Below, in pieces: positions 1-10,227 of a stretch of 64,000 nt of DNA. The position numbers and the translations under genes are program-made. A model generated the notes under the pieces. It was not told the DNA's origin, searched no databases, and saw only the letters and a list, made by a program, of their open reading frames with translations. This stretch comes from an uncultured Bacilli bacterium. GTDB lineage: Bacteria > Bacillota_I > Bacilli_A > RFN20 > CAG-449. Every line of letters starts with the position of its first letter. Positions within the stretch are counted from its first letter, which is position 1. The stretch covers positions 4,923 through 68,922 of the forward strand of contig CANRPC010000006.1 of NCBI GenBank assembly GCA_947632435.1. The letters run 5' to 3'.

Positions 1-890
1 AGATTTCCTTCAGAAGTATTTAATGAATAATCTATATTTTGCTTAGATAAATAATTTTTCAAAAGCTTAATTTGATTTTGTGTATTCATTCCATCAACCA
101 TTGGATCATCACCAATTTCATCTTTACCTATTTTACATAGATAATCATGAAAATCTTGCTTTTGGTTTGGATGATCGTCTGCACCAGGAGATTGAGTAAA
201 ATCTTTGATTGAAAAAATATCATTAGTCATTTGTCTTGAAATTACATCATAATTTTCAGGGATGATGAGATCAGTATAAAATGTATCATAATAACTTAAT
301 AGAATCTCCATTGATACAATTGTACATGTTCCAACATGATTCCATGCATGATGGTCATTAAGTTTTTCAAAGTAAAAAGCATTAGGTATTACAACTGCAT
401 CATTTGCAATTTCAATTTCTCTATAATATTCACCTGCTTTAGCTTCTAAATTACTATAACAACTAATCATTTTTGTGAAATCAATTTTATTTGAAGTTGA
501 GGAATCAACAAAAGAATCATTATAATATGTTACATATCTAAATCCAAAATTTTCTGTTGAATATACTTTAAAATTATTTTCATACTTTTCGTATGGACTA
601 TCATCAGTAAAAGAATATTCCTTTATTTCCATTTCTTTTTTATCATAAATCAAATATCCTTCGTCTAAATTAACTTCTAAATATCGATTTTCACCAGATA
701 AAGTGTATAAATCGCTGATATATTCTATACAATTTAACTCATCACAATTTTGATAAGATATATTATTTTTTTCACAAATAAAAGTTGCGATGTTATTTAA
801 ATCAGAAGATCGAGTTTCATAATTTATTCCAGATGCAAAACCAGTAATTGCTGATAAGGCGTTAAGACCAAGTATAATAGCATTTAGCAT
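1..890 (-). CDS. Secreted hypothetical protein, 5'-partial at the window edge. N-terminal signal peptide (MLNAIILGLNALSAITGFASG), Cys-rich, with a DHHAWNHVGTCT motif.
   Basis: Hand translation of the minus strand from ATG at 890 (RBS GGAGGG upstream at 897-902) runs open to the window edge. It is absent from the ORF track because it is truncated. Co-oriented with the mobile-element operon. Confidence 0.5.
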   Translation of the reverse strand, partial: MLNAIILGLNALSAITGFASGINYETRSSDLNNIATFICEKNNISYQNCDELNCIEYISDLYTLSGENRYLEVNLDEGYLIYDKKEMEIKEYSFTDDSPYEKYENNFKVYSTENFGFRYVTYYNDSFVDSSTSNKIDFTKMISCYSNLEAKAGEYYREIEIANDAVVIPNAFYFEKLNDHHAWNHVGTCTIVSMEILLSYYDTFYTDLIIPENYDVISRQMTNDIFSIKDFTQSPGADDHPNQKQDFHDYLCKIGKDEIGDDPMVDGMNTQNQIKLLKNYLSKQNIDYSLNTSEGN

Positions 891-905
891 AAGTTTCCCT
901 CCTAT

Positions 906-1502
906 TTAAAGTGCATAAGCACAAGCAAATATAATTGATATAATAATTAAAAATATGTTAAGTATAAAAATAATAGTTGCACTAACAAACAAATAATATT
1001 TTGCCTTCATTTGCTTAATAAATCGCCATAGTGCAAATAACAATATATCAATAATACACATAATAAACGTGATTATTGCTATCGGATTTCCATTTTTGGA
1101 GCAAGAATAAATAATGCTCCAAGTATAAAATTCTTTTAACGGATGATCCATACCAGTTGGTATTGGATAAACATAATTAAATCCTTTCAGGAATGGAATA
1201 AGAGAAGTAATCAAAAACAAAAAGCAAATTATAACACCTGTTATAGAAACAATTATATGAATGAGTTTTATAGATTTTAATGTGTCTAAAGATATTTGCA
1301 CGTTCTCATCGTTATCTACTAAATCTGACAATTTGACATTAAAATATACTGCTATTTTTTCTGCAACTTCCTTAGTTGGATAAACAAATCCTCTTTCATA
1401 TTTTGCAATCATCGAACGAGAAACATAAATTGCATCAGCTAATTCGCTTTGAGTAATTTTTTTATCATTTCTGAGTTTTTTTAATTTGTCTGAAAAATTC
1501 AT
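906..1502 (-). CDS. Membrane-tethered XRE-family HTH transcriptional regulator. N-terminal Cro/C1-type HTH with about 4 C-terminal transmembrane helices.
   Basis: ORF 906..1511. The start was refined to ATG at 1502 (MNFSDKL), which has a GGGGTGGT RBS. HTH motif KKITQSELADAIYVSRSMIAKYERG. Hydrophobic C-terminal half. Confidence 0.7.
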   Translation of the reverse strand: MNFSDKLKKLRNDKKITQSELADAIYVSRSMIAKYERGFVYPTKEVAEKIAVYFNVKLSDLVDNDENVQISLDTLKSIKLIHIIVSITGVIICFLFLITSLIPFLKGFNYVYPIPTGMDHPLKEFYTWSIIYSCSKNGNPIAIITFIMCIIDILLFALWRFIKQMKAKYYLFVSATIIFILNIFLIIISIIFACAYAL

Positions 1503-1742
1503 AATTACCACCCCGTTTTCTTACTTTACTTATACATTCAAATTAATAAAAAAGTAAAGTTCTTTTTTTGTGAACATTGTTCTTTTTTTATGAACATTCA
1601 AAATTACATTCCAATTATATAAATCTCTTTTTTCAATATCATTCTAATTTTATCATATAAATGGACACTTTTTTAGGAAAAGCTATAAATTTTCTTGCAA
1701 AATAAATCTCTCAATGACTTATTTTATATTTTTTTAGCAATT

Positions 1743-2174
1743 TTATTTGCATTGTTTCCACTTCTTTTCTATATTCATCAATTTTTGAGACACTGCTTGC
1801 TGTGATATTTTCATTATATTAGCGGTTTCTCTCTGATTCATTTCTTTAAAATAGTAAAGTTTGAAACAAAAGTTCTCTTTATCAGTCAATGAATGAAGAA
1901 AAGAATCTAAAATTGATTTTCTTTCTTCTATGGCTATTAATTTTCTTTCAATTTTATCTTTTCGATCAAGAAGAATCATCATTCTATCAGGTTTAACATT
2001 CGTGCTTCCGCCAATACGATCATAAACAGGACCAGACACAGTAAAGAAAAGATGATTTACCCACTCTAAATCTTCTTCAAGTTTTTTCTTACGAAATTTA
2101 TCCTGCTTTACCATTCTTACGAAGTCCATTAAGGAGTTCTTGCATTGACTCGTTCCAGCGTTCCATTCTTTCAT
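1743..2174 (-). CDS. ArpU/RinA-like phage transcriptional regulator with a sigma-70 region-4-like C-terminus.
   Basis: 143 aa. C-terminal HTH RETANIMKISQQAVSQKLMNIEKKW. Strong RBS GGAGGGA 5 nt upstream of ATG at 2174. Overlaps the 3' end of the upstream rep-like gene by 76 bp. Confidence 0.5.
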   Translation of the reverse strand: MKEWNAGTSQCKNSLMDFVRMVKQDKFRKKKLEEDLEWVNHLFFTVSGPVYDRIGGSTNVKPDRMMILLDRKDKIERKLIAIEERKSILDSFLHSLTDKENFCFKLYYFKEMNQRETANIMKISQQAVSQKLMNIEKKWKQCK

Positions 2175-3048
2175 CGTATCCCTCCATATGGCTTAAGTTG
2201 TTTTCAAAAGCACACCTAAAAAAATCATATATGTTCCAAATCTTATCTTTGTTTTTTCCAACATAGTCCCTAGTATAGCGAAAACACTTCTGTACGAGTT
2301 TCCAATCATATGCTTTACAAGCACTATCAAAAAGATCATTGAATCGCTCAATATCAATGTCGTAAATATCTATGATGTGATCACTTATTAAGCATCTTGT
2401 GTAATACGAAAGATAACGAGGAAATGCCGTTATATCATATTTATCCTTTTTATCTTCTTTTCCTTTTACTTTAACTTTCCCTTTTACTTTAGGAATTTTT
2501 GCTGACATTAACTCGGTTTCTGTTAACATTAATTCGTTTTTTGTTTGCAATAATTCCTCTTGAACGGAATTATTGTCAACATTTATTCCATTGAGTGATT
2601 TTTCACTTTTGTTGTCTGAACCATAATTTTTTATTACAGAAGATTCATCATCTGTGGTCAAAATCCAATATGGATGATCCTTTTGCTTTCTTCTTTGTGT
2701 TGAAGCTAAGAATTGCTTTTGTATCCCTTTTGAAGTAATTATTTCATTTGAAAGCATACTAGAATCAATTAAATCTAACTTAACAAATAGATCCAGTATT
2801 TTTCTTACATAGGAAACATCCTTATCGCTTTCTTTGAACCTGATTTCATAATAAATTGAATATGCAAGTCTATCCAAAGAACCTTCAATATAATAACCAT
2901 TACTTGAATAAGTCATTGTTAAAAGCATAAGGTATACTAAAGGACCATCTGGTCCAAATTCAACAGATAGTCTTCTTATCTTAGGATCAGCAAAAAACCT
3001 AACATCCAAAGGAAAGTAATCAAGCCCATCTTTCAATCTTCTAGGCAT
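2098..3048 (-). CDS. Phage replication initiation / replisome organizer-like protein (Lin1244/DUF4373-type N-terminal domain).
   Basis: The ORF is called 2098..3129, but the likely start is MPRRLKDGLDYFPLDVRFF at 3048, which has an AAAGGAG RBS. The GLDYFPLDV N-terminus is typical of the DUF4373 phage replication family. The assignment rests on pattern memory. Confidence 0.5.
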   Translation of the reverse strand: MPRRLKDGLDYFPLDVRFFADPKIRRLSVEFGPDGPLVYLMLLTMTYSSNGYYIEGSLDRLAYSIYYEIRFKESDKDVSYVRKILDLFVKLDLIDSSMLSNEIITSKGIQKQFLASTQRRKQKDHPYWILTTDDESSVIKNYGSDNKSEKSLNGINVDNNSVQEELLQTKNELMLTETELMSAKIPKVKGKVKVKGKEDKKDKYDITAFPRYLSYYTRCLISDHIIDIYDIDIERFNDLFDSACKAYDWKLVQKCFRYTRDYVGKNKDKIWNIYDFFRCAFENNLSHMEGYDERMERWNESMQELLNGLRKNGKAG

Positions 3049-3161
3049 GGTATTTTTGCTCCTTTCTGCAAGTGATAAAAATCTGCACAAAATGACAGGA
3101 ATAAGCATAAATTCTCTTAGACCTGCCACTTTTGTACATATTTAAACCGAAATCACTAACA

Positions 3162-3368
3162 TTATTTCTTATTCGGTTTATTCTTGTTTTCGCTTCTTTG
3201 GATAAACTCCTCTAGCATTTCTTTTGATACTCTTTTTGCTTTACCAACAGTGTAATATCTAAGCTCACCTTTATTCATCATATCCATTACTTTTCTTTTG
3301 GAAACTCCCCAGAGTTCCGCTAGTTCACTAACGGTATAACAGATCTTCCCATCTGATGTTTGTGCCAT
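3162..3368 (-). CDS. xis: Excisionase-like small HTH DNA-binding protein.
   Basis: 68 aa. Motif YTVSELAELWGVSKRKVMDMMNKGEL matches the excisionase/MerR-type HTH. Strong RBS GGAAGGAGG. Lies adjacent to the integrase operon. Confidence 0.6.
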   Translation of the reverse strand: MAQTSDGKICYTVSELAELWGVSKRKVMDMMNKGELRYYTVGKAKRVSKEMLEEFIQRSENKNKPNKK

Positions 3369-4136
3369 CTAATCTTCCTCCTTCCTACCTGCATAATCTT
3401 CTAATATTTTTCTTATATGATTAATTCCCTTTTTATAGCAGAATGTTCTTCGATGCGTAACCAGTCCACCACTTTTATCTGTATAAGAATGGTTATCAAC
3501 TCTAAACCATCCTTTATCTTGATATTCTTGAAATGGAAAATTATCATCAGTAAAAATAAGTTGTGCTCTTAAAATCGCTAGGAGTTCGGCAATACCGACA
3601 CCCTTCATATTAATCACTGCAGGAACATCATAAAGATCAACAAGCGTTCCAGAATCTAAGGCTCTTTTAACATAGATTTTGACTTCTCTTGTTTCTTCTT
3701 GTTGACGTTCTAAAATTGCAAGTTTAACTTTGAGTTCATTGTAATTATCTAAAAACGACACTGCTGATTCAGTATTAGTGGTTATCATCTGAACATCATA
3801 TTTCCCATATCTTCTAATCTTTGGAAGTATGTCTTCAGTAACCCAGTCCATAAACTGCACTGCCGATTCTTTCCTAGATTGAAAAATTAACTTATATAAG
3901 TTCCCTTCTGTGATATAAAGGTAGTTTTGATTTCCACCATTTGATTGCCTAGTAAGTTTAACTACACCATCAGATCTTAGTCTTGATTTTGCATCAGAGA
4001 CATTTTTAATTTCTAAAATATTACACACATCTTTAAGGCAAAATACTGGACGTCCAAATTCATCGATACTAGTTCTTATTGTGCCAATTGAGTCACGCTC
4101 AAAAAGCGATACATTGTTTAGTTGTTCTTTTTCCAT
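3369..4136 (-). CDS. Phage antirepressor with a Bro-N N-terminal domain and a KilA-C/ANT-like C-terminal domain.
   Basis: 255 aa. N-terminus FERDSIGTIRT..DEFGRPVFCLKDVCNILE...GNLYKLIFQSRKESAVQFMDWVTEDILPKIRRYGKY is a classic Bro-N pattern. The C-terminus contains AELLAILRAQLIF. RBS GAAAGGA. Confidence 0.65.
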   Translation of the reverse strand: MEKEQLNNVSLFERDSIGTIRTSIDEFGRPVFCLKDVCNILEIKNVSDAKSRLRSDGVVKLTRQSNGGNQNYLYITEGNLYKLIFQSRKESAVQFMDWVTEDILPKIRRYGKYDVQMITTNTESAVSFLDNYNELKVKLAILERQQEETREVKIYVKRALDSGTLVDLYDVPAVINMKGVGIAELLAILRAQLIFTDDNFPFQEYQDKGWFRVDNHSYTDKSGGLVTHRRTFCYKKGINHIRKILEDYAGRKEED

Positions 4137-4180
4137 AATTGTCCTTTCGTATAGCGATATAAAACCATGATAAAAAAACG

Positions 4181-5098
4181 CTAATTCTTTTTTAAAATTG
4201 CATCTGCAACAATTAGTTCAGTATTATTGGTTTCTCTTTCAATATGATGAGAATAAATCATAGTTGTATTTATTGATTTATGTCTTAAAACCATCTGAAC
4301 TTCACTTTCTTTTGCTCCATTTTTTAAAGCTAGTGTTGCACAAGTATGCCTTAGACTATGAGCTGTGTACTCCTTACCATCAAGTCCAATCGAACTTAAT
4401 AAATCTTTGCAAAAATAAGAGATCGTTTTTGGTTCAATTCTTTCTCCACCATTATGATTTCCATGGTTAATGAAAAGTGCATCAGAATCACTTTCTCTTT
4501 TCATTAAGTATTCAGTAATTAATCCCATAACAAAGCTAGGTAATTTAATTTGAGCATCTTTTCCTTCATGACCTTTTCCCTGAATTAGTAAAATGGCTTG
4601 CTCTCCATCATCAATAATGTCTTCGACATTTGCTCTAGAAACCTCAATAGTTCTTAAACCTGTCATAACTATAAGAGTTATAATTACATAATTTCTAAAA
4701 TTTACAATTGATTTTTTTGATCTAATTTTTGCTTTATGAAGTAACTTTTTAGTCTGTTCAATTGTCAGAGCTTTTCTTTGAAATGTTGGATTTATTTTTT
4801 CACACTGTAATGCCAAAGCAATATTATCATCATAATAATGATGACGTTGACACCACGAATAGAACCTGCGTAGGACCACTATATATTTCTGGATAGTTGC
4901 ACTTTTCACACGTTTCTTAAGATATTTATTTTTATAATTTACAATGTCAATTTCAGTTGGTTTAGTTATATTATTAGCACGTAAATATCTAGCATATCTA
5001 TCAAGAATCCCTGCATAAGAAATCTTTGTATTATCCATTTTATCAAGAGTAGCATTAAACTCTTTTATTAGATCTTCCACTGTTCTTTCTTGTGACAT
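4181..5098 (-). CDS. int: Tyrosine-type site-specific integrase.
   Basis: C-terminal catalytic signature HSLRHTCATLALKNGAKESEVQMVLRHKSINTTMIYSHH (R..H..R..Y). The ORF track gives 4181..5110 with a GTG start. ATG at 5098 (MSQERT) has an AAAGGTGG RBS and is the more likely start. Confidence 0.85.
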   Translation of the reverse strand: MSQERTVEDLIKEFNATLDKMDNTKISYAGILDRYARYLRANNITKPTEIDIVNYKNKYLKKRVKSATIQKYIVVLRRFYSWCQRHHYYDDNIALALQCEKINPTFQRKALTIEQTKKLLHKAKIRSKKSIVNFRNYVIITLIVMTGLRTIEVSRANVEDIIDDGEQAILLIQGKGHEGKDAQIKLPSFVMGLITEYLMKRESDSDALFINHGNHNGGERIEPKTISYFCKDLLSSIGLDGKEYTAHSLRHTCATLALKNGAKESEVQMVLRHKSINTTMIYSHHIERETNNTELIVADAILKKN

Positions 5099-5103
5099 CT
5101 TTT

Positions 5104-5382
5104 TTACCACCTTTCTTTATGATTAAGCTCTCGGATTTTTTCTAGATACTTTGCTTCTTCATCAACAATGTAAACCACATCAATGTTAAACACCTGTGCA
5201 AGAGCCTTTAGTCTAAGAGCATTCATTAAATGACCTTTTGTACCATTCTCAATTTTTCCATATTCGAATTGAGGGTATCCTAGTCGCTTAGCTACTTCAT
5301 ATTGAGATAAGTTTCTTTCTATCCTCAAATTGAAAAGATAGTCTCTGCTTTTTACGATGTTTCCGTTATTCATCCGTCCCAT
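5104..5382 (-). CDS. Cro/CI-type HTH (XRE family) regulator. It is the first gene of the leftward int operon.
   Basis: HTH LSQYEVAKRLGYPQFEYGKIENG. The ORF track extends to 5400 with a GTG start. ATG at 5382 is preceded by AAGGGAGGT. Transcribed divergently from the 190-aa XRE gene. Confidence 0.7.
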   Translation of the reverse strand: MGRMNNGNIVKSRDYLFNLRIERNLSQYEVAKRLGYPQFEYGKIENGTKGHLMNALRLKALAQVFNIDVVYIVDEEAKYLEKIRELNHKERW

Positions 5383-5523
5383 CGGTATACCTCCCTTCAC
5401 ATTTGACTAAAATTCGTGGAATTGTTTGTCTAATGTATGGAAATTTTACCGCTAATTGTCAAAATAAATAATTTACTCGAAGTAATATCTTTTAATTATT
5501 TTGCATTTTGTCAAATTTCAAAG

Positions 5524-5552
5524 TTGAATAAAAACTATGTTTTTGTTATAAT
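5524..5552 (+). promoter_or_regulatory. Sigma-A-type promoter for the rightward repressor-like gene. TTGAAT -35 at 5524-5529, a 17-bp spacer, and an extended -10 TGTTATAAT at 5544-5552.
   Basis: Read directly from the sequence. RBS AGGTGA at 5566-5571. TTGTCAAA is repeated twice in the 5401-5576 intergenic region (around 5455 and 5507), as would be expected for operators. Confidence 0.5.
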
Positions 5553-5576
5553 TCAAAACTGAAATGAGGTGAAAAA

Positions 5577-6149
5577 ATGCAAGACGAAGAATTTATAAAA
5601 TTAGTTTCAAAAAGACTTGTTTACTTAAGAAAAAAACATGATCTAAGTGCCGTTGAAGTTGCAAAAGCAATAGGAAAAAGCGTAGATGCTTATTACAGCT
5701 ACGAGGCAGGTAGAAGGATGATTTCTGCAGATGCTTTGTATAATTTATCAAATCTATATGACATGTCTATTGATGACATTGTTGATAACGAAGTAACATA
5801 TAAACGAGAAAAATCAGTCAGTTTTGAAGTTGTAAATTCGGATAGTAAAATACAAATTTCCTCCGAGAATAATGAAATTATTTTTTTTAAATTAGATGAT
5901 TTCACCTATGAATACTATTTAAAAACAAATACCATTACGCTTGACAGAAAAATCCTTTTAAAGAAAGACGATGTCTTCTTCTCAGGTAAAGTTACATATA
6001 ACGAAAAAATGAAAGTTTACTCTATTTACAATTACTTAGATGATAGAAATGAAATCTGCACTAAAGCACATTTCTTGAAACATTATCTTACTTATGGAAT
6101 TTATGCTGGAAGAATTAATAAAAACATAGATATTCCAAATTTCTTATAA
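5577..6149 (+). CDS. XRE-family HTH protein resembling a CI-like repressor, with a C-terminal extension.
   Basis: N-terminal HTH LSAVEVAKAIGKSVDAYYSYEAGRR. Transcribed divergently from the Cro-like-int operon across a 176-bp promoter region. Confidence 0.7.
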   Translation: MQDEEFIKLVSKRLVYLRKKHDLSAVEVAKAIGKSVDAYYSYEAGRRMISADALYNLSNLYDMSIDDIVDNEVTYKREKSVSFEVVNSDSKIQISSENNEIIFFKLDDFTYEYYLKTNTITLDRKILLKKDDVFFSGKVTYNEKMKVYSIYNYLDDRNEICTKAHFLKHYLTYGIYAGRINKNIDIPNFL

Positions 6150-6259
6150 AATATTACTTTGAGTTTCTTATTTGTTTTAAAAAAATGGTTTAGACTGACA
6201 ATGGTTTAGTTATATTGTTCGGTCGTACTAGTTTATCCTATATGCCCTACAAATCTTTG

Positions 6260-6292
6260 AAGCACCATTCACGTTGGAAAGGTGCTTTTTTC
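6260..6292 (+). terminator. Rho-independent terminator: hairpin AAGCACC...GGTGCTT followed by a T-run.
   Basis: A stem of 7 bp with a T6 tail, read from the sequence. Confidence 0.5.
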
Positions 6293-6539
6293 TATGCAAA
6301 ATAATACTTTAAAAAATGATAATATATCTTTTTCACCTGAATGGGAATATTGCAAACAAGTAATTGATGAACTAAGAGCAAACAAAATCATAACATCAGA
6401 TGAATGGTATAAATTAATAATTTCATTTAGAAGCATATTTCATCTCCCTATCGCAAAATAGGTATTATTTCAGTTCAAAAATTACTTGATATAAGTGTGC
6501 TTTAGAGTGATTTATATGTGCGAAAGGAGGATTAATTTA

Positions 6540-8243
6540 ATGGAGTTAACAACAAAAAAAATAACTATAATTCCCAAGAAAGAACAAATAAAAGTTGATG
6601 AAACGACGGGTATTAAAATCAAAAAGAAAGTATGTGCTTATGCTCGTGTTTCTACAAATTTAGAAGACCAAAAGAATAGTTTTAATGCTCAGCTTGAGGA
6701 ATATTCAAGCAGAATAAAGAGAAATCCTGAATGGGAATTTGTAGGACTATATTCTGATGAAGGAATATCAGGAACATCCATAAAGAAAAGAAAAGGGTTC
6801 CAGAAAATGATTGAGGATGCTCTAGAAGGAAAAATCGATATAATTCTAGTAAAATCAATCTCAAGATTCGCTAGAAATACTATCGATTGCCTAAGTGTAC
6901 TTAGAAAACTTAGAGATAAAGGAATCATTGTCCAGTTTGAAAAAGAGCAAATTAACACACTTGATCCAAAACTTGAGATGATGATTACAATTTTTGCATC
7001 AATGGCTCAGGAAGAATCAAAATCGATTAGTGAAAATGTTAAATGGGGCGTTCGAAGTCGAATGAAACGAGGTGCAAGAAAAATTAGTTTTTCTACCATT
7101 CTTGGATATGACACAGATACAAATGGCAATGTAGTAATTATCGATGATGAAGCAAAAATTGTAAAAGAAATTTTTACTCTATTCTGCTCTGGATACTCAT
7201 ATAGAGAAATAATTGATTATTTGACTGAGAAAGGTCAAAAAACTGGAACAGGTAAAGATTATTGGAATGTTGGTGATATTCAAAGAATATTATCAAATGA
7301 AAAATACTGTGGTGATGTTTTATTGCAAAAAACTGTCGTAGTTGATTTTCTAACTCACAAAGTTATAAAAAACAATGGAATAGAACCACAAGTTTATATC
7401 GAGGGACATCATCCACCTATTATCGATAAAGAGATGTTCGATTTTGCTAAAACAATTAGAGAACATAAGTATAAAATGATAGACCACACATCAAGAAAAA
7501 ATATTAATCCTTTAGCTGGTATTGTATATTGCTCTTGTTGCGGAAGAAAGCTTGATTCGATAACTACTCATCCTGGAAAGTCATATGCAAAAAAAGTTAT
7601 GACTTGTAAGCACATGAAAAAAGAAGCTGTAGATTTTTTAGAATGTAACCTCCCACCTATAGATTACGAATTATCAAAGGAAGCACTAAGACAAGTTTTG
7701 AATAAATACTACACTTCTGCTCCAGTTTACAAAAGATTATTTATGAACACTTTTAAAAAAGCGTTACCTAATTTCAGAGAAATTAAGTTATCTATAAATG
7801 ATATTAACTCAACTATAATTCAACTCGAATCTAAGCTTAAAGAAATCATCAAAAAACAAGCATTATCTCCATGTAAAGAAAATGAGATAGAATTTCAAAC
7901 TATAAAACAATTGTTAACTAAAGAAAAAGAAAAATTAGAAAACTTGGAAACTTCTGAAGTTAAAAAAGTAAATGATTTAAGGACATATGATGAAATAGAA
8001 AACTTTATCGAAAATGGAATTATACTTCCAAAACAACTTATAGCTCAAGTTATCAAATTTATTATAAGAAACAATGATAATTCATTAACTTTTGTTTTAG
8101 GAAACAAGGCCTCTTGTTCCATTTCAAAAGCTCAAATTGATGAATATCTTTCATTAACTCCTGTTGATTCAGGATCGGTTGAAATTGATGGAAAAGTTAT
8201 GGAGTATAAAGTAATTAATGCAGGAGGTGATACAAATGATTAA
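6540..8243 (+). CDS. Large serine recombinase with an N-terminal resolvase/invertase catalytic domain, a recombinase domain and a zinc ribbon.
   Basis: YARVSTNLEDQ catalytic-Ser motif, DIILVKSISRFARN, and Cys pairs CSCCGRK...TCKHMK. The start was refined to ATG 6540 (MELTTKK), which has an AAAGGAGG RBS. The ORF track begins at 6495. Confidence 0.85.
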   Translation: MELTTKKITIIPKKEQIKVDETTGIKIKKKVCAYARVSTNLEDQKNSFNAQLEEYSSRIKRNPEWEFVGLYSDEGISGTSIKKRKGFQKMIEDALEGKIDIILVKSISRFARNTIDCLSVLRKLRDKGIIVQFEKEQINTLDPKLEMMITIFASMAQEESKSISENVKWGVRSRMKRGARKISFSTILGYDTDTNGNVVIIDDEAKIVKEIFTLFCSGYSYREIIDYLTEKGQKTGTGKDYWNVGDIQRILSNEKYCGDVLLQKTVVVDFLTHKVIKNNGIEPQVYIEGHHPPIIDKEMFDFAKTIREHKYKMIDHTSRKNINPLAGIVYCSCCGRKLDSITTHPGKSYAKKVMTCKHMKKEAVDFLECNLPPIDYELSKEALRQVLNKYYTSAPVYKRLFMNTFKKALPNFREIKLSINDINSTIIQLESKLKEIIKKQALSPCKENEIEFQTIKQLLTKEKEKLENLETSEVKKVNDLRTYDEIENFIENGIILPKQLIAQVIKFIIRNNDNSLTFVLGNKASCSISKAQIDEYLSLTPVDSGSVEIDGKVMEYKVINAGGDTND

Positions 8244-9852
8244 AACATTGCATAAACCAGTTGATGGCAGAAAACTAAAAGTTTGTGCTTATGCTAGAGT
8301 TTCATCAGATAAAGAACTTCAAGAAACAAGTTTTGATGAGCAAATAACATATTATATTAATTTAATAATGAATAATCCTGAATGGGACTTTGCAGGTATA
8401 TTCGCAGATAATGGCAAGACAGGTACTAATACAAGTGTAAGAACACAATTTAATCTCATGCTTGATAAAGCAAAATCTAGCCAAATTGATATTATTCTAG
8501 TTAAATCAATTTCACGATTCGCAAGAAATGTAATTGACCTTTTAAGCACCATTCAAGAACTAAGATTAAAAGGAATTGAAGTCTTTTTTGAAAGAGAAAA
8601 CCTTTCTTCTCTCGATTATAAATGCGATGAACTTCTAACTTGTTATGCAAAATTTGCTGAAGAGGAATCAGAATCAATAAGTAAGAATGTTAAATGGGCT
8701 GTTGAAAAAGCAAAACGAGATGGAAAATACTTTATCAATACTTGGCAGATGCTAGGATATTCATATAATGAAAACAATGAAATTGTTATTGTTGAAGAAG
8801 AAGCAAAATGGATACGAGCAATTTATAACATGTATGTAAATAATCGCTCACTTGTAGAGATTCAACAATTCTTAAAGGAAAACAATGTTAAAAGTCCTTT
8901 AGGAAAAGAAATATGGCCTTTTACTACACTTATGCATACTCTAACAAATGAAAAATATGTAGGTGATTGCCTCATGCAAAAAGAATTTATTGAAGATGTC
9001 AAGACGCATAAGAAAATTCAAAATACTGGCCAAGAAACGCAAGTACTCATAGAAAATGGGCATCCAGCAATTATAGATAGAGATTTATTTAATAAAGCTC
9101 AAGCATTAAGAGAATCAAGACGTAAGCAGTTTAAGGTAAGAACTATATTAGAAGGAACCTACATAAAATCTTCTAATTCTTCTACTTATACTGGATTTGC
9201 ATACTGTCCTCATTGTGGTAAGAATTATATTCTTAAAACAAATAGAAAAGAAGGTTATATGAGAAAAATGCTCTACTGCGGTTCAAATCGAAATGGACTT
9301 CAATGCAGAAAAAGCGAATCATTATTTTGTGACATTTTGGAAGACATTATGGTAAAGCAAATAAATGTTATACTAGCAAATAAATCATATTTTAAAGAAT
9401 GGTTATTAAATGGCTTCAGAATAAATGAATCAGACATTGATAATACTTCTGAGAAGATTGAATCTTTAAGAAAAAGACTTACTGAACTTGATGATAATGT
9501 TGAAATAGACAGGTATGTTAAAGAGGAAATTAACAATCAAATAAATAGTCTCATTACCAAGCAAATCCAAGAGCGAAATAATAAACTTGTAATTGATTAT
9601 CAATCTCTTATTTCAAAAATTCTTGATTTGATTAAGCAATATAATTCAATAAAAACAATTGATGAAATTCCGTTTAGAGATATTTTCTCAAAAGTGATAG
9701 TCATTGATAGAGATCACTTAATATTTGTCATAGGAAGTCCAAATTTAGAAAAAGTTGATGTTAATCAAAAAACATACTTCTCATCAAAAATAATTTACAG
9801 AGTGAGAAAAACAAACTTCGAATGTGAATTTGGTATAATCATAAATAAGTAA
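8236..9852 (+). CDS. Second large serine recombinase, a paralog of the upstream gene.
   Basis: YARVSSDKELQ, DIILVKSISRFARN and a zinc-ribbon CPHCGK...CGSNRNGLQC. The start was refined to ATG 8236 (MIKTLHK), which has a GGAGGTGA RBS. It overlaps the upstream stop by 8 bp, as in ccrA/ccrB pairs. Confidence 0.85.
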   Translation: MIKTLHKPVDGRKLKVCAYARVSSDKELQETSFDEQITYYINLIMNNPEWDFAGIFADNGKTGTNTSVRTQFNLMLDKAKSSQIDIILVKSISRFARNVIDLLSTIQELRLKGIEVFFERENLSSLDYKCDELLTCYAKFAEEESESISKNVKWAVEKAKRDGKYFINTWQMLGYSYNENNEIVIVEEEAKWIRAIYNMYVNNRSLVEIQQFLKENNVKSPLGKEIWPFTTLMHTLTNEKYVGDCLMQKEFIEDVKTHKKIQNTGQETQVLIENGHPAIIDRDLFNKAQALRESRRKQFKVRTILEGTYIKSSNSSTYTGFAYCPHCGKNYILKTNRKEGYMRKMLYCGSNRNGLQCRKSESLFCDILEDIMVKQINVILANKSYFKEWLLNGFRINESDIDNTSEKIESLRKRLTELDDNVEIDRYVKEEINNQINSLITKQIQERNNKLVIDYQSLISKILDLIKQYNSIKTIDEIPFRDIFSKVIVIDRDHLIFVIGSPNLEKVDVNQKTYFSSKIIYRVRKTNFECEFGIIINK

Positions 9853-9876
9853 AAAAATATATAAAAAAAGAGGAAC

Positions 9877-9915
9877 TTGAGTTTGTAAGTTCAAGTTCCT
9901 TTTTCTTTGCTCATA
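9877..9915 (+). terminator. Rho-independent terminator: a 10-bp perfect stem AGGAACTTGA...TCAAGTTCCT followed by TTTTCTTT.
   Basis: Read from the sequence immediately after the recombinase stop. Confidence 0.6.
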
Positions 9916-10110
9916 AGTTCGCTTCCCGTTTGCTTCTCGTTCGCTTTCCCTATGTCTTTAATTTGAATAATTTATGAGTTCGTACCCTATATTTATCAAT
10001 GCATTTTTGCCTAGTTTAATACCAATTGACCAGAAACCGCTAGAACTAATCATTTGCTAAAAAGTGTCGTTTCGTGCGTTTTGCTGTTGATATAGTGCAT
10101 TTTTAGACAA

Positions 10111-10139
10111 AAATAAAAAGAGTACCAACTGGTATTCTT
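10111..10139 (-). terminator. Rho-independent terminator for tRNA-Trp. The hairpin has 9 of 10 bp paired, followed by a U-run on the minus strand.
   Basis: Plus strand reads AAATAAAAAGAGTACCAACTGGTATTCTT. On the minus strand this is a hairpin followed by TTTTTATTT. Confidence 0.5.
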
Positions 10140-10153
10140 TTGGTTTTTTTGAA

Positions 10154-10227
10154 TGGCAGGAGTGACAGGAATCGAACCCGCGTTAATGGTTTTGGAGACC
10201 ACTGTACTACCATTGTACGACACTCCT
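10154..10227 (-). tRNA. trnW: tRNA-Trp (anticodon CCA).
   Basis: Minus-strand sequence AGGAGTGTCGTACAATGGTAGTACAGTGGTCTCCAAAACCATTAACGCGGGTTCGATTCCTGTCACTCCTGCCA folds into a cloverleaf with anticodon loop CTCCAAA. The CCA end is encoded. Confidence 0.85.

What the first reader, a model, noticed from the sequence alone, without database searches (positions are those of the whole stretch)
906..6149. Phage-satellite-like regulatory and replication module with atypical gene order and no structural genes in view
The leftward operon reads Cro-like (5382), int, Bro-N antirepressor, xis, DUF4373-type rep, ArpU-like, membrane-tethered XRE, then a secreted protein, with 0-10-bp gaps or overlaps. The integrase sits downstream of the Cro-like gene rather than beside the CI-like gene. 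The set int + xis + replication initiator + small late-activator-like protein, with no terminase, capsid or tail genes over 10 kb, resembles PICI/SaPI-type satellites more than a full prophage. An antirepressor inside the int operon is also odd. The divergent region (5401-5576) has a near-consensus extended -10 promoter and two TTGTCAAA repeats that could be operators.
Basis: partly seen in the sequence, partly recalled or inferred. Interest (0 to 1): 0.55.

Follow-up and report, generated by a model that had tools for sequence, protein, structure and literature searches.

The report
Gene-poor phage-derived island beside tRNA-Trp
The flagged genes are the control and replication core of an 8.4-kb mobile island that descends from a temperate phage, has no virion genes, sits exactly at the end of a tRNA gene, and in sister copies carries interchangeable anti-phage defence systems.

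Summary
The genes are real and intact, but the unit is drawn wrongly. The conserved element runs from about 1743/1756 to 10152. It ends exactly at the CCA end of tRNA-Trp. The membrane XRE and the secreted protein (a C10 peptidase) lie outside it.

At least 20 metagenomic contigs carry the same core at 93-100% identity. All break at the last codons of the sigma-like gene. Beyond that point come different defence systems (SspABCD+PbeA, type II and type IIG restriction-modification) or, as here, nothing.

A copy 97-99% identical to this one sits at tRNA-Trp in a host whose flanking genes are only 68% identical. The element has therefore moved between hosts. All nine genes are under purifying selection.

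A relative whose tyrosine recombinase is 58% identical to the window's is a complete phage with the same early-gene order, followed by terminase, portal and head protease. The "atypical order" is therefore a phage-family trait, not a satellite signature.

My best reading is a phage-derived island without late genes, satellite-like, and here with an empty cargo bay. Helper dependence is untested, and PICI membership fails. The "int" is Xer-like and probably not the integrase.

The parts
10154..10227 (-). tRNA-Trp(CCA). The element begins immediately 3' of its CCA end, so this is the insertion target.
   Evidence: ARAGORN and Rfam tRNA at 63 bits. L034, 99.1% identical through yqeY and the tRNA, diverges from the window exactly at 10152/10153. 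L070 and L080/L160 have the same junction.
9853..10152 (.). Terminal segment of the element on the att-proximal side. It holds a hairpin plus T-run next to the tRNA, an 11-bp x2.7 repeat GTTCGCTTCCC (9917-9946), and a motif conserved in all lineages (complement of CACGAAACGACACTTTTTAGCAAA, 10053-10076).
   Evidence: It is 95% identical to L070 although the host flank is only 68% identical. Homologous end sequences follow tmRNA (L030), tRNA-Leu (L072) and two further tRNA 3' ends (L157, L158). Repeats.
8218..9852 (+). Large serine recombinase 2 (544 aa).
   Evidence: Resolvase, Recombinase and Zn_ribbon_recom domains. phrog_95 integrase, E=3e-106. Ccr-like but below cut-off. 99% nt identity to L070; 43% aa identity to lineage B. 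dN/dS 0.07.
6540..8243 (+). Large serine recombinase 1 (567 aa from the ATG at 6540). It overlaps LSR2 by 26 bp.
   Evidence: 45% aa identity to lineage B and 41% to LSR2. dN/dS 0.10.
6294..6461 (+). Small ORF (55 aa) heading the recombinase operon. Its function is unknown; a recombination accessory factor is one candidate.
   Evidence: A small ORF occupies this position in lineages A, B and C and in the phage relatives (45-99 aa); sequence similarity was seen by eye only between lineages A and B. No family hit. The boundary between the near-identical core and the diverged recombinase module lies at its ATG.
6150..6293 (+). Conserved non-coding tail of the CI-like gene, with a terminator-like hairpin (about 6262-6290) and an ATGGTTTAG direct repeat.
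   Evidence: 97-98% identical in every close copy, including those where the neighbouring genes are 85-93% identical. Alignment. No Rfam match.
5577..6149 (+). CI-like repressor (190 aa). It has an N-terminal HTH_3 domain and a C-terminal half with no recognised domain, in particular no S24 peptidase.
   Evidence: Its dS against L030/L070 is 0.57-0.64, versus 0.02-0.17 for neighbouring genes, which indicates an immunity-allele swap.
5383..5576 (.). Divergent switch region. It holds the rightward promoter TTGAAT-17-TG-TATAAT (5524-5552), TTGTCAAA boxes (5456-5463 and 5508-5515), and the palindrome TTACTCGAAGTAA.
   Evidence: The region is more conserved than the flanking coding sequence, even against the 72%-identical lineage L157.
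5104..5382 (-). Cro-like XRE (92 aa), first gene of the leftward operon.
   Evidence: HTH_3. Called as 92 aa in all sister contigs. dN/dS 0.06.
4181..5098 (-). Xer-like tyrosine recombinase (305 aa). Probably a multimer resolvase or accessory recombinase rather than the integrase (inferred).
   Evidence: Phage_integrase plus SAM_1. The best NCBIfam hits are XerA, XerD and XerC, all below cut-off. PDB matches are XerA, XerC-like, XerH and XerD. Lowest dN/dS of all genes, 0.03. Kept at this position in the complete phage relative.
3369..4136 (-). Bro-N / KilAC antirepressor (255 aa).
   Evidence: phrog_130 'anti-repressor Ant', E=4.5e-45. Exact protein found on 7 contigs.
3162..3368 (-). HTH_17 'excisionase family' DNA-binding protein (68 aa). 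A candidate directionality factor.
   Evidence: PF12728 E=2.8e-13. TIGR01764, 43.5 bits, above its cut-off. Exact protein found on 20 contigs.
3049..3161 (-). Conserved spacer: the invariant motif AAATAATGTTAGTGATTTCGG, then a hairpin followed by a T-run. A candidate attenuator or terminator, or a protein-binding site.
   Evidence: Alignment of six lineages. DNA fold z-score -2.8. By eye, the arms change together in L157. RNAalifold on the full set did not recover the hairpin.
2098..3048 (-). Replication initiator or replisome organiser with a Lin1244_N (DUF4373) N-terminal domain. In-gene 21-bp x2.5 repeats (2505-2556) and an inverted repeat (2542-2581) are candidate origin sequences.
   Evidence: phrog_2562. 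No primase or helicase domain and no PDB relative. Repeats. dN/dS 0.07.
1743..2138 (-). Small sigma-70 region-4 protein (131 aa), last gene of the core. The cargo junction lies in its last codons, after ...IEKKW at 1755/1756.
   Evidence: Every sister copy loses homology at window 1755/1756. Junction sequences. The IEKKW end is conserved in L157 and L164.
1..1742 (-). NOT part of the conserved element. Contents: an intergenic region with a 20-bp tandem repeat (1559-1598), the membrane-tethered XRE (906-1502), and the 5' part of a secreted C10-family peptidase (1-890, running off the window).
   Evidence: GC is 25.5%, equal to the host and below the 29-31% of the element. Only 81-89% identical in L074 and L068, where the core is 97%. 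The XRE-plus-C10 pair occurs without the element in L079 and next to core genes in L069. C10 naming.

Best explanation
The flagged genes are the regulatory and replication core of an integrated element of about 8.4 kb (window ~1743/1756 to 10152). It is a derivative, without late genes, of a family of temperate phages of low-GC gut bacteria, probably Anaeroplasmataceae.

Layout, starting at the tRNA:
- a terminal segment;
- two large serine recombinases with a small leader ORF, all co-oriented with the CI-like repressor gene;
- a divergent switch;
- a leftward operon of Cro-like regulator, Xer-like tyrosine recombinase, antirepressor, HTH_17 protein, DUF4373 initiator and a small sigma-like factor.

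In sister copies, a co-oriented block of defence genes follows directly after the sigma-like gene. The window copy has this 'cargo bay' empty.

Shown:
- The element is a discrete unit with a sharp end at the CCA of tRNA-Trp.
- It has moved between distantly related hosts.
- Its genes are under purifying selection.
- Cargo differs between otherwise near-identical copies.
- Distant relatives with the same early region are complete phages.

Inferred mechanism:
- The CI-like protein represses the leftward promoter through the conserved TTGTCAAA and palindromic boxes.
- The LSR pair integrates the element at tRNA or tmRNA 3' ends.
- On derepression, the early operon makes the antirepressor (which locks the switch), the HTH_17 protein (directionality factor), the initiator (which fires an origin inside its own gene) and the Xer-like recombinase (which resolves replicated circles).
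- The sigma-like factor and read-through transcription raise expression of whatever sits in the cargo bay.

The element encodes no virion or conjugation genes. Spread therefore most likely depends on packaging by a related helper phage. That would make it a satellite-like defence carrier, but this last step is not shown.
For: Unit and boundary:
- blastn of L034 against the window and the junction sequences place the right end exactly at the tRNA-Trp CCA.
- All copies share the left breakpoint at 1755/1756.

Mobility:
- Between the window and L070, yqeY and the ABC-F gene are 68% identical at the nucleotide level.
- The end segment is 95%, the LSRs 98-99% and most of the core 97-99% identical, the cro-switch-CI stretch being 90%, at the same tRNA-Trp site.
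- L080/L160 show the same pattern, with host flanks at 70-73%.

Composition: element GC is 29-31%, against host and left flank at 25%.

Selection: dN/dS is 0.03-0.16 for all nine genes, window versus L080.

Cargo (PADLOC):
- SspD/B/C/A plus PbeA in L070, L071, L075 and L157.
- Type II MTase plus type IIG enzyme in L030.
- Type IIG enzyme plus specificity subunit in L074.
- Two D12 MTases in L076.
- AccI REase plus MTase in L164.
- All cargo is co-oriented with the early operon.
- L157 and L070 are colinear at ~72% identity through both core and Ssp cargo, so the cargo travels with the core.
- In L074 the cargo is followed by a relic of a sigma 3' end (LIKIEKKWKQCQ*) and then by the same flank as in the window. 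The window is therefore the uninterrupted, empty state.

No virion genes:
- None within 9.6 kb past sigma in L030 or within 7.5 kb in L160, where GC and gene content return to host type.
- The relative of the window's left flank continues with C10-like secreted paralogues.
- An invariant switch motif is absent from 2.9 million IMG/VR contigs.

Phage ancestry: L164/L171 and L161.

Host: C10 relatives are named Anaeroplasmataceae or Acholeplasmatales. The LSRs are ~40% identical to the terminal LSR pair of Anaeroplasmataceae phage NatCom_34063.
Against: - The distal attachment site was not found. There is no convincing repeat or dyad shared between the two ends, so excision competence of the window copy is unproven.
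- The window shows only 1.75 kb beyond the sigma-like gene. Statements about what lies further left rest on relatives 86-89% identical, not on the source contig (86,365 bp), which I could not fetch.
- The distal ends of the Ssp-bearing copies (L070, L157) are unseen. In the complete phage L164, a 10.8-kb cargo block sits between sigma and terS. Some close copies could therefore still be full prophages.
- L034 has a different gene after tRNA-Trp, not the window's left flank. A clean empty-site comparison is therefore missing.
- L160 has split CI and rep genes, so at least some copies decay.
- No packaging signal, terS or capsid-remodelling gene is present, and no helper was identified.
Confidence: 0.55

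Rival explanations
1. It is a cryptic prophage remnant. A complete prophage of this family integrated at tRNA-Trp and later lost its cargo and late genes by deletion. The copy is now immobile. The conservation seen among copies was earned while the genes were still part of working phages.
For: Complete phage relatives with the same early region exist. No distal att site was found. L160 carries frameshifts in CI and rep. The distal ends of L070 and L157 are unseen, so near-identical complete prophages cannot be excluded.
Against: Copies without late genes occur in at least three backgrounds with different recombinase lineages, sites and flanks: window/L074, L160/L080 and L030. Each shows a clean core-(cargo)-host structure and no partial late genes. 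The sigma-3' relic distal to the L074 cargo is not what a simple deletion of late genes would leave. All genes in the window copy are intact. The family's invariant switch motif is absent from IMG/VR, although the distant complete phage is present there.
Confidence: 0.22
2. It is a member of the PICI/SaPI family of phage-inducible chromosomal islands. That would mean a tyrosine integrase next to a master repressor, a primase-helicase replicon, and interference or packaging genes.
For: Small size, a divergent repressor/Cro-like switch, a replication gene, no virion genes, and defence cargo in sister copies.
Against: The replication protein has only a Lin1244_N domain, with no primase or helicase. 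The tyrosine recombinase lies inside the lytic-direction operon and is Xer-like. The terminal recombinases are serine-type. There is no terS, ppi, cpm or alpA-type gene. The whole gene order is inherited from a complete phage lineage.
Confidence: 0.04
3. The Xer-like tyrosine recombinase, together with the HTH_17 excisionase, is the real integrase acting at tRNA 3' ends. The serine recombinase pair has another role, such as inversion, resolution, or mobilising only its own module.
For: Insertion precisely at tRNA or tmRNA 3' ends is the classical habit of tyrosine integrases. An excisionase-family gene lies two genes downstream in the same operon. The terminal segment next to the tRNA is conserved across lineages, as the tyrosine recombinase is, while the LSRs are only 43-46% identical.
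Against: The same recombinase (97-100% identical) is found at tRNA-Trp, tmRNA and tRNA-Leu. In addition, one exact protein lies beside two different tRNA ends (L157, L158). In no case does the element carry a copy of the tRNA 3' part, because the flanks differ right up to the CCA. The protein lacks an arm-binding N-domain and matches Xer and integron-type enzymes. The LSR pair sits 300 bp from the junction, co-oriented with the repressor. That is the usual place of a phage integrase. The Anaeroplasmataceae phage NatCom_34063 also ends in an LSR pair.
Confidence: 0.2
4. It is an integrative mobilizable element that hitch-hikes on conjugative elements rather than on phages.
For: Small size, recombinases plus cargo, no virion genes. 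A small sigma-like protein and an XRE/HTH_17 set are also found in Tn916-type regulation regions (weak Tn916-Xis hit, E=0.002).
Against: No relaxase, coupling protein or T4SS domain appears in any ORF of the element or of its sister copies. The nearest complete relatives are tailed phages. All core genes have phage-family (PHROG) matches.
Confidence: 0.04

Closest known systems
IMGVR_UViG_3300016722_000138 (uncultivated 39.9-kb temperate phage; loci L164/L169/L171) and the related contig L161
   Same: Same order and domain content: LSR pair, small ORF, CI-like | Cro-like, Xer-like recombinase (58% aa), Ant (59%), HTH_17, DUF4373 rep (38%), sigma-like ending in IEKKW. Restriction-modification cargo also follows directly after sigma.
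   Different: After the cargo it continues with terS-like, ParB-MTase, HNH, terL, portal and head protease genes. The window element stops at the sigma-like gene.
PICI / SaPI phage-inducible chromosomal islands
   Same: Roughly 10-kb integrated island with a divergent repressor switch, its own replication function, no virion genes, and a variable region that carries defence systems in sister copies.
   Different: Serine rather than tyrosine terminal recombinases. A DUF4373 organiser rather than a Pri-Rep primase-helicase. An antirepressor and a Xer-like recombinase in the early operon. No terS or capsid-size genes. Helper induction not shown.
PLE of Vibrio cholerae (phage satellite with a large serine recombinase)
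   Same: A satellite-type island that relies on a large serine recombinase and replicates after excision. My source is background knowledge; the literature search listing PLE papers is.
   Different: PLE has a single LSR, a RepA_N initiator and a different gene set. No sequence relationship was found here.
SCCmec-type cassette chromosome elements (CcrA/CcrB)
   Same: Two adjacent, mutually diverged large serine recombinases (best NCBIfam hits are CcrB, CcrC and CcrA, all far below cut-off). They carry variable cargo into the 3' end of a conserved gene, and the element has no transfer machinery of its own.
   Different: SCC elements have no CI/Cro switch, antirepressor or DUF4373 initiator, and they target rlmH. 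The scores are far below Ccr family thresholds, so this is not a Ccr element.
Defence hotspots of prophages and satellites (P2/P4 hotspots, PICI accessory regions)
   Same: One fixed position between conserved genes holds interchangeable defence systems in otherwise near-identical elements.
   Different: Here the hotspot begins inside the last codons of the sigma-like gene. In one copy it is bounded distally by a relic of that gene's 3' end.
Anaeroplasmataceae phage NatCom_34063 (PV036447.1, Ca. Heliusvirales)
   Same: Probably the same host family. It ends with a pair of large serine recombinases ~40% identical to those here. It has ParB-like and amidoligase genes near its terminase, like L161.
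   Different: A 63-kb complete phage with a different early region (primase). It has no homologue of the Xer-like recombinase, Ant, rep or sigma-like genes.

Membership tests
PICI / SaPI | Tyrosine integrase at the element end, next to and divergent from the master repressor | tested here: not met
   The end is occupied by two serine recombinases co-oriented with the repressor. The tyrosine recombinase lies inside the opposite operon and is Xer-like.
PICI / SaPI | Primase and/or helicase (Pri-Rep) replication module with an adjacent ori | tested here: not met
   Only a Lin1244_N domain is present. No primase or helicase was found in Pfam, NCBIfam or PDB searches.
PICI / SaPI | Packaging or interference genes (terS, ppi, cpm, or capsid genes in cf-PICI) | tested here: not met
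   No such family appears among the element's ORFs or in sister copies.
PICI / SaPI | Absence of virion and lysis genes; size about 10-15 kb | tested here: met
   The element is 8.4 kb in the window. The sister L074 is about 11.6 kb. No virion genes are present.
Phage satellite (any family) | Induction, replication and packaging depend on a helper phage | not testable with these tools
   No expression, excision or particle data are available. Only indirect evidence exists: horizontal spread without any transfer genes.
Temperate phage lineage of IMGVR_UViG_3300016722_000138 | Conserved early-region synteny and homology of all early genes | tested here: met
   All nine proteins have homologues at 36-59% aa identity in the same order.
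Temperate phage lineage of IMGVR_UViG_3300016722_000138 | Complete late region (terminase, portal, capsid, tail, lysis) | tested here: not met
   The window has a host-like flank 240 bp after the sigma-like gene. Relatives of that flank continue with secreted peptidases. Caveat: only 1.75 kb of the window itself is visible beyond sigma.
SCC / Ccr cassette chromosome elements | CcrA/CcrB or CcrC recombinases reaching family score | tested here: not met
   CcrB scores are 136 and 99 bits against a cut-off of 900.
ICE / IME | Relaxase, with or without coupling protein and T4SS | tested here: not met
   No such domains were found in any ORF scanned.
   NCBIfam lists only sigma-70/ECF, FliA and SigB-type region-4 matches, with no ArpU family at E<=1e-3. 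PHROG hits are 'RNA polymerase sigma factor' or 'transcriptional regulator'.

The most novel reading that the evidence does not exclude
Two novel readings remain open.

1. The paired serine recombinases (or the Xer-like enzyme) recognise a generic feature of tRNA-like 3' ends rather than one gene. The same element lineage is found immediately after the CCA of different RNA genes: tmRNA and tRNA-Leu for one lineage, and two different tRNA ends for one exact recombinase protein. Every junction reads CCA|T(T)C, and the element carries no copy of the tRNA.

2. The element is a helper-dependent satellite in which the sigma-like factor and early-operon read-through switch on a swappable defence cassette when a phage attacks. 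That would make it an inducible, horizontally mobile defence carrier in uncultured gut Anaeroplasmataceae.
Probability: 0.2. Interest if true: 0.75.

Novelty: new variant of a known kind. Interest (0 to 1): 0.55.

Why it matters
If the reading holds, it adds a family of small phage-derived islands to the known carriers of defence systems. The hosts are a barely studied, uncultured group of gut bacteria.

- It gives a clear natural series for studying how a satellite or mini-element arises from a temperate phage: a complete phage, islands with cargo, and an empty 8.4-kb backbone.
- It shows that one fixed slot exchanges phosphorothioation (Ssp/Pbe) and several restriction-modification systems among copies that are otherwise 97-99% identical.
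- Insertion exactly after the CCA of several different tRNA and tmRNA genes, next to a pair of large serine recombinases, would interest people who engineer such recombinases.
- For annotation, it warns that a tyrosine recombinase next to Cro is not necessarily the integrase.

Tried and rejected
- The genome-contig scan with the rep protein did not contain the source genome. It gave only 28-45% relatives (L003-L022). These share nothing else with the core at E<=1e-5, apart from scattered recombinase hits.
- Viral scans with the window's rep and tyrosine recombinase found no close relative.
- The single metagenome scan gave one close contig, L080.
- A protein search with the 65-aa fragment that follows tRNA-Trp in L034 found nothing and cost one of three searches. 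L034 could therefore not be used to find the element's far end.
- I looked for a copy of the tRNA or tmRNA 3' end, or of the terminal sequence, at the far side of the element. I found only chance-level 11-12-mers; the L030 17266 hit lies inside a coding region.
- I looked for a shared distal-end motif among the window, L074, L068, L160 and L030 and found none.
- I considered that the 4.55-kb core is itself a nested tyrosine-recombinase element bounded by ATAGAAAA(G)AAG repeats. I rejected this as unsupported. The repeat is short and AT-rich. At the sigma end it is simply the IEKKW-coding sequence. The core is never seen without the LSR module.
- I considered an integron-like cassette mechanism for the cargo. 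Only L074 shows a flanking repeat, and it reads as a relic of a sigma 3' end.
- Walking along the IMG/VR contig with exact DNA patterns returned fixed stored blocks. A protein-centred scan was needed instead.
- Rfam gave no RNA family apart from the tRNA.
- RNAalifold on the HTH_17-rep spacer did not recover the hairpin, because the two most distant sequences align poorly.
- Deposited phages and plasmids contain no close relative of the element.

Full report
OBSERVATION

Pfam and PHROGs assign the expected domains:
- Cro-like XRE, 5104-5382.
- Tyrosine recombinase, 4181-5098.
- Bro-N/KilAC antirepressor, 3369-4136.
- HTH_17 excisionase-family protein, 3162-3368.
- Lin1244_N (DUF4373) initiator, 2098-3048.
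- A 131-aa Sigma70_r4 protein, 1743-2138.
- An XRE with transmembrane segments, 906-1502.
- A signal-peptide protein running off the left edge, 1-890.
- The CI-like gene on the other strand, 5577-6149.

The extended -10 promoter (5524-5552) and the two TTGTCAAA boxes (5456 and 5508) are there. The 8-mer is not enriched window-wide. However, the intergenic region is better conserved than the flanking genes, even in a lineage ~72% identical overall. Box 1 is invariant in that comparison.

Three details are wrong:
- Gaps of 44, 113 and 240 bp exist, so the spacing is not all 0-10 bp.
- The small protein matches generic sigma-70 region 4, not an ArpU model.
This is a 55-aa ORF and two large serine recombinases (6294-9852), followed 300 bp later by tRNA-Trp.

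THE REAL UNIT

Exact-protein look-ups found the same genes on many metagenomic contigs. Ant is on 7 and the HTH_17 protein on 20.

blastn shows that every copy loses similarity to the window at 1755/1756. This point is in the last codons of the sigma-like gene, after the sequence encoding IEKKW.

On the other side, contig L034 is 99.1% identical through yqeY and tRNA-Trp. It diverges from the window exactly at the tRNA's CCA end, 10152/10153.

The element is therefore ~1743/1756-10152, about 8.4 kb. Its GC content is 29-31%. The host and the left flank (1-1755) are at 25%.

The membrane XRE and the secreted protein are outside the element:
- The secreted protein is a C10-family peptidase whose relatives are named in Anaeroplasmataceae and Acholeplasmatales MAGs.
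- The pair is only 81-89% identical in contigs whose core is 97% identical.
- The pair occurs without the element in L079. In L069 it lies next to core genes such as UDG and TyrRS.
- In L068 it is followed by further secreted C10-like paralogues.
The caveat is that it rests on relatives, not on the source contig.

MOBILITY AND SELECTION

A segment-by-segment comparison shows that L070 carries the element at the same tRNA-Trp site.
- The terminal segment is 95% identical.
- The recombinases are 98-99% identical.
- Most of the core is 97-99% identical; the cro-switch-CI stretch is 90%.
- The adjacent yqeY and ABC-F genes are only 68% identical.

L080/L160 show the same pattern with host flanks at 70-73%. 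The element has therefore moved between distantly related hosts.

Between the window and L080, all nine genes have dN/dS of 0.03-0.16. The tyrosine recombinase has the lowest value. The cro and CI genes have a much higher dS than their neighbours when the window is compared with L030 or L070. This is the signature of an immunity-allele swap.

CARGO

Immediately after the sigma-like gene, and always in the same orientation, sister copies carry defence systems:
- SspD, SspB, SspC and SspA, followed by a PbeA-type PLD-helicase, in L070, L071, L075 and L157.
- A type II methyltransferase plus a type IIG enzyme in L030.
- A type IIG enzyme plus a specificity subunit in L074.
- Two D12 methyltransferases in L076.

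L157 has a tyrosine recombinase only 76% identical to the window's. It is colinear with L070 at ~72% identity through both the core and the Ssp genes. The cargo is therefore inherited with the core and is not just neighbouring DNA.

In L074 the 3.15-kb cargo is followed by a 12-codon relic of a sigma 3' end (LIKIEKKWKQCQ*). After that comes the same flank as in the window, whose sigma-like gene ends KKWKQCK*. The window therefore represents the empty state of this slot.

L160/L080 also look cargo-less. What follows sigma there is a secreted protein with the C-terminal domain of the C10 peptidases, then membrane proteins and a membrane XRE. These are host-type genes.

WHICH RECOMBINASE INTEGRATES

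Every junction reads CCA|T(T)C..., and the terminal sequences are homologous. The flanking genes differ by lineage:
- tRNA-Trp for recombinase lineage A (window, L070, L080/L160).
- tmRNA (L030) and tRNA-Leu(GAG) (L072) for lineage B.
- Two different tRNA 3' ends (L157, L158) for lineage C.

The flanks differ right up to the CCA, so the element does not carry a copy of the tRNA end.

The serine recombinases of lineages A and B are 45% and 43% identical. The tyrosine recombinase is 97-100% identical across them. Its best matches are XerA, XerD, XerC, XerH and integron integrases, all below family cut-offs.

I therefore assign integration to the serine recombinase pair. I assign a resolvase or accessory role to the tyrosine enzyme, at roughly 60:20 odds. 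The conserved terminal segment and the tRNA-end habit keep the alternative alive.

ORIGIN

A search with the tyrosine recombinase and context look-ups showed the architecture is conserved at 76% identity (L157) and at 55% identity (L161/L162).

An IMG/VR contig of 39.9 kb (L164/L169/L171) has the same early region, with 36-59% aa identity for all nine proteins. Its sigma-like gene is followed by:
- AccI-type restriction-modification genes and other cargo;
- then a terS-like gene, ParB-MTase and HNH;
- then a large terminase (E=6.5e-145), portal and head protease.

The 'odd' gene order is therefore the normal early region of a temperate phage lineage. The cargo slot after the sigma-like gene exists in the complete phage too. 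The window's family is that early region plus recombinases, without the late genes.

Other database evidence:
- Deposited phages and plasmids hold no close relative.
- An Anaeroplasmataceae phage (PV036447.1) also ends in two serine recombinases ~40% identical to these.
- A switch motif invariant across the close lineages is absent from IMG/VR.

HOW IT MOST LIKELY WORKS

Shown:
- The unit is discrete.
- It has been horizontally transferred.
- It is under purifying selection.
- Its cargo is variable.
- It descends from a phage.

Inferred:
- A CI/Cro-type switch acts through the conserved boxes.
- The serine recombinases are co-expressed with the repressor and carry out integration.
- The early operon supplies the antirepressor and a directionality factor (HTH_17).
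- It also supplies an initiator acting on the 21-bp repeats inside its own gene.
- It also supplies a Xer-like resolvase and a sigma-like activator. With read-through, the activator would raise cargo expression.
- A conserved motif plus hairpin and T-run between HTH_17 and rep may gate the operon.

The vehicle for transfer is unknown. With no virion or conjugation genes, packaging by a related helper phage is the most economical idea. It remains untested.

WEAK POINTS

- The far att site is not identified.
- The distal ends of the Ssp-bearing copies are unseen.
- L160 shows decay.
- I exhausted look-ups before I could read the 49-86-kb contigs that carry near-identical proteins.

A prophage-remnant reading therefore keeps about 0.2 probability.

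VERDICT

The satellite interpretation is partly right in spirit: a small, mobile, virion-less, phage-like island. It is wrong in its specifics (PICI type, the role of 'int', the extent of the operon, and gene order as evidence). This is a new variant of a known kind, of moderate interest.

Noticed in passing
L157:1-30, L158:1-30, L030:2895-2930, L072:312-345; window 10150-10160: The same element lineage lies directly after the CCA of different RNA genes. One exact recombinase protein is beside two different tRNA ends. Lineage B is beside tmRNA and tRNA-Leu. All junctions read CCA|T(T)C, and the element holds no copy of the tRNA end.
   Followed up: partly
L072:316-552 and L072:2384-2560: A 2.07-kb insert encoding a PETase-like hydrolase and a TetR regulator is flanked by ~170-bp direct repeats of the element's terminal segment. 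It lies between tRNA-Leu and the recombinase genes. It may be a second cargo position or a tandem relic.
   Followed up: partly
window 3049-3161: The spacer between the HTH_17 and rep genes has a motif (AAATAATGTTAGTGATTTCGG) that is almost invariant in six lineages. A hairpin follows whose arms change together in L157, and then a T-run. This is a candidate attenuator or protein-binding site.
   Followed up: partly
window 6150-6293: The non-coding tail of the CI-like gene is 97-98% identical in all close copies, more conserved than the genes around it. It contains an ATGGTTTAG direct repeat and a terminator-like hairpin. No Rfam family matches.
   Followed up: partly
window 1559-1598: A perfect-register 20-bp tandem repeat, GTTCTTTTTTT(G/A)TGAACATT x2, lies upstream of the membrane-tethered XRE gene, outside the element. 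Each unit contains a GTTC...GAAC palindrome. It is a plausible operator for that regulator.
   Followed up: no
window 9917-9946 and 10053-10076: The terminal segment holds 11-bp repeats (GTTCGCTTCCC x2.7). It also holds a 24-nt motif (complement of CACGAAACGACACTTTTTAGCAAA) conserved in recombinase lineages that are only 43-46% identical.
   Followed up: no
window 1-1502; L068:903-6841; L079:9409-11704; L069:115-2403: A membrane-tethered XRE followed by a secreted C10-family peptidase is a recurring two-gene unit in these organisms (120 homologues with E<=1e-5). In L068 it is followed by further C10-like paralogues and a lipoprotein.
   Followed up: partly
L079:13041-15357: Next to an XRE-plus-C10 pair in an unrelated 140-kb contig lie two ThsB_TIR proteins, a caspase-like peptidase (C14) and another TIR protein. 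This looks like a defence cluster.
   Followed up: no
L160:8951-9522 and L160:12051-13000: In one copy, 99% identical to L080, the CI-like gene and the rep gene are each split into two ORFs and no Cro-like gene was called. This is either decay of that copy or assembly error.
   Followed up: no
window 5104-6149 versus L030 and L070: The cro and CI genes have synonymous divergence of 0.43-0.64, while neighbouring genes have 0.02-0.17. The immunity module has been exchanged by recombination within an otherwise near-identical core.
   Followed up: yes
L161:9735-15984 and L162:8981-9316: A relative whose recombinase is 55% identical carries a different set after the sigma-like position: terS-like, ParB-MTase, S-adenosylmethionine synthetase, HNH and amidoligase genes. 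I could not see whether it is a complete phage.
   Followed up: partly
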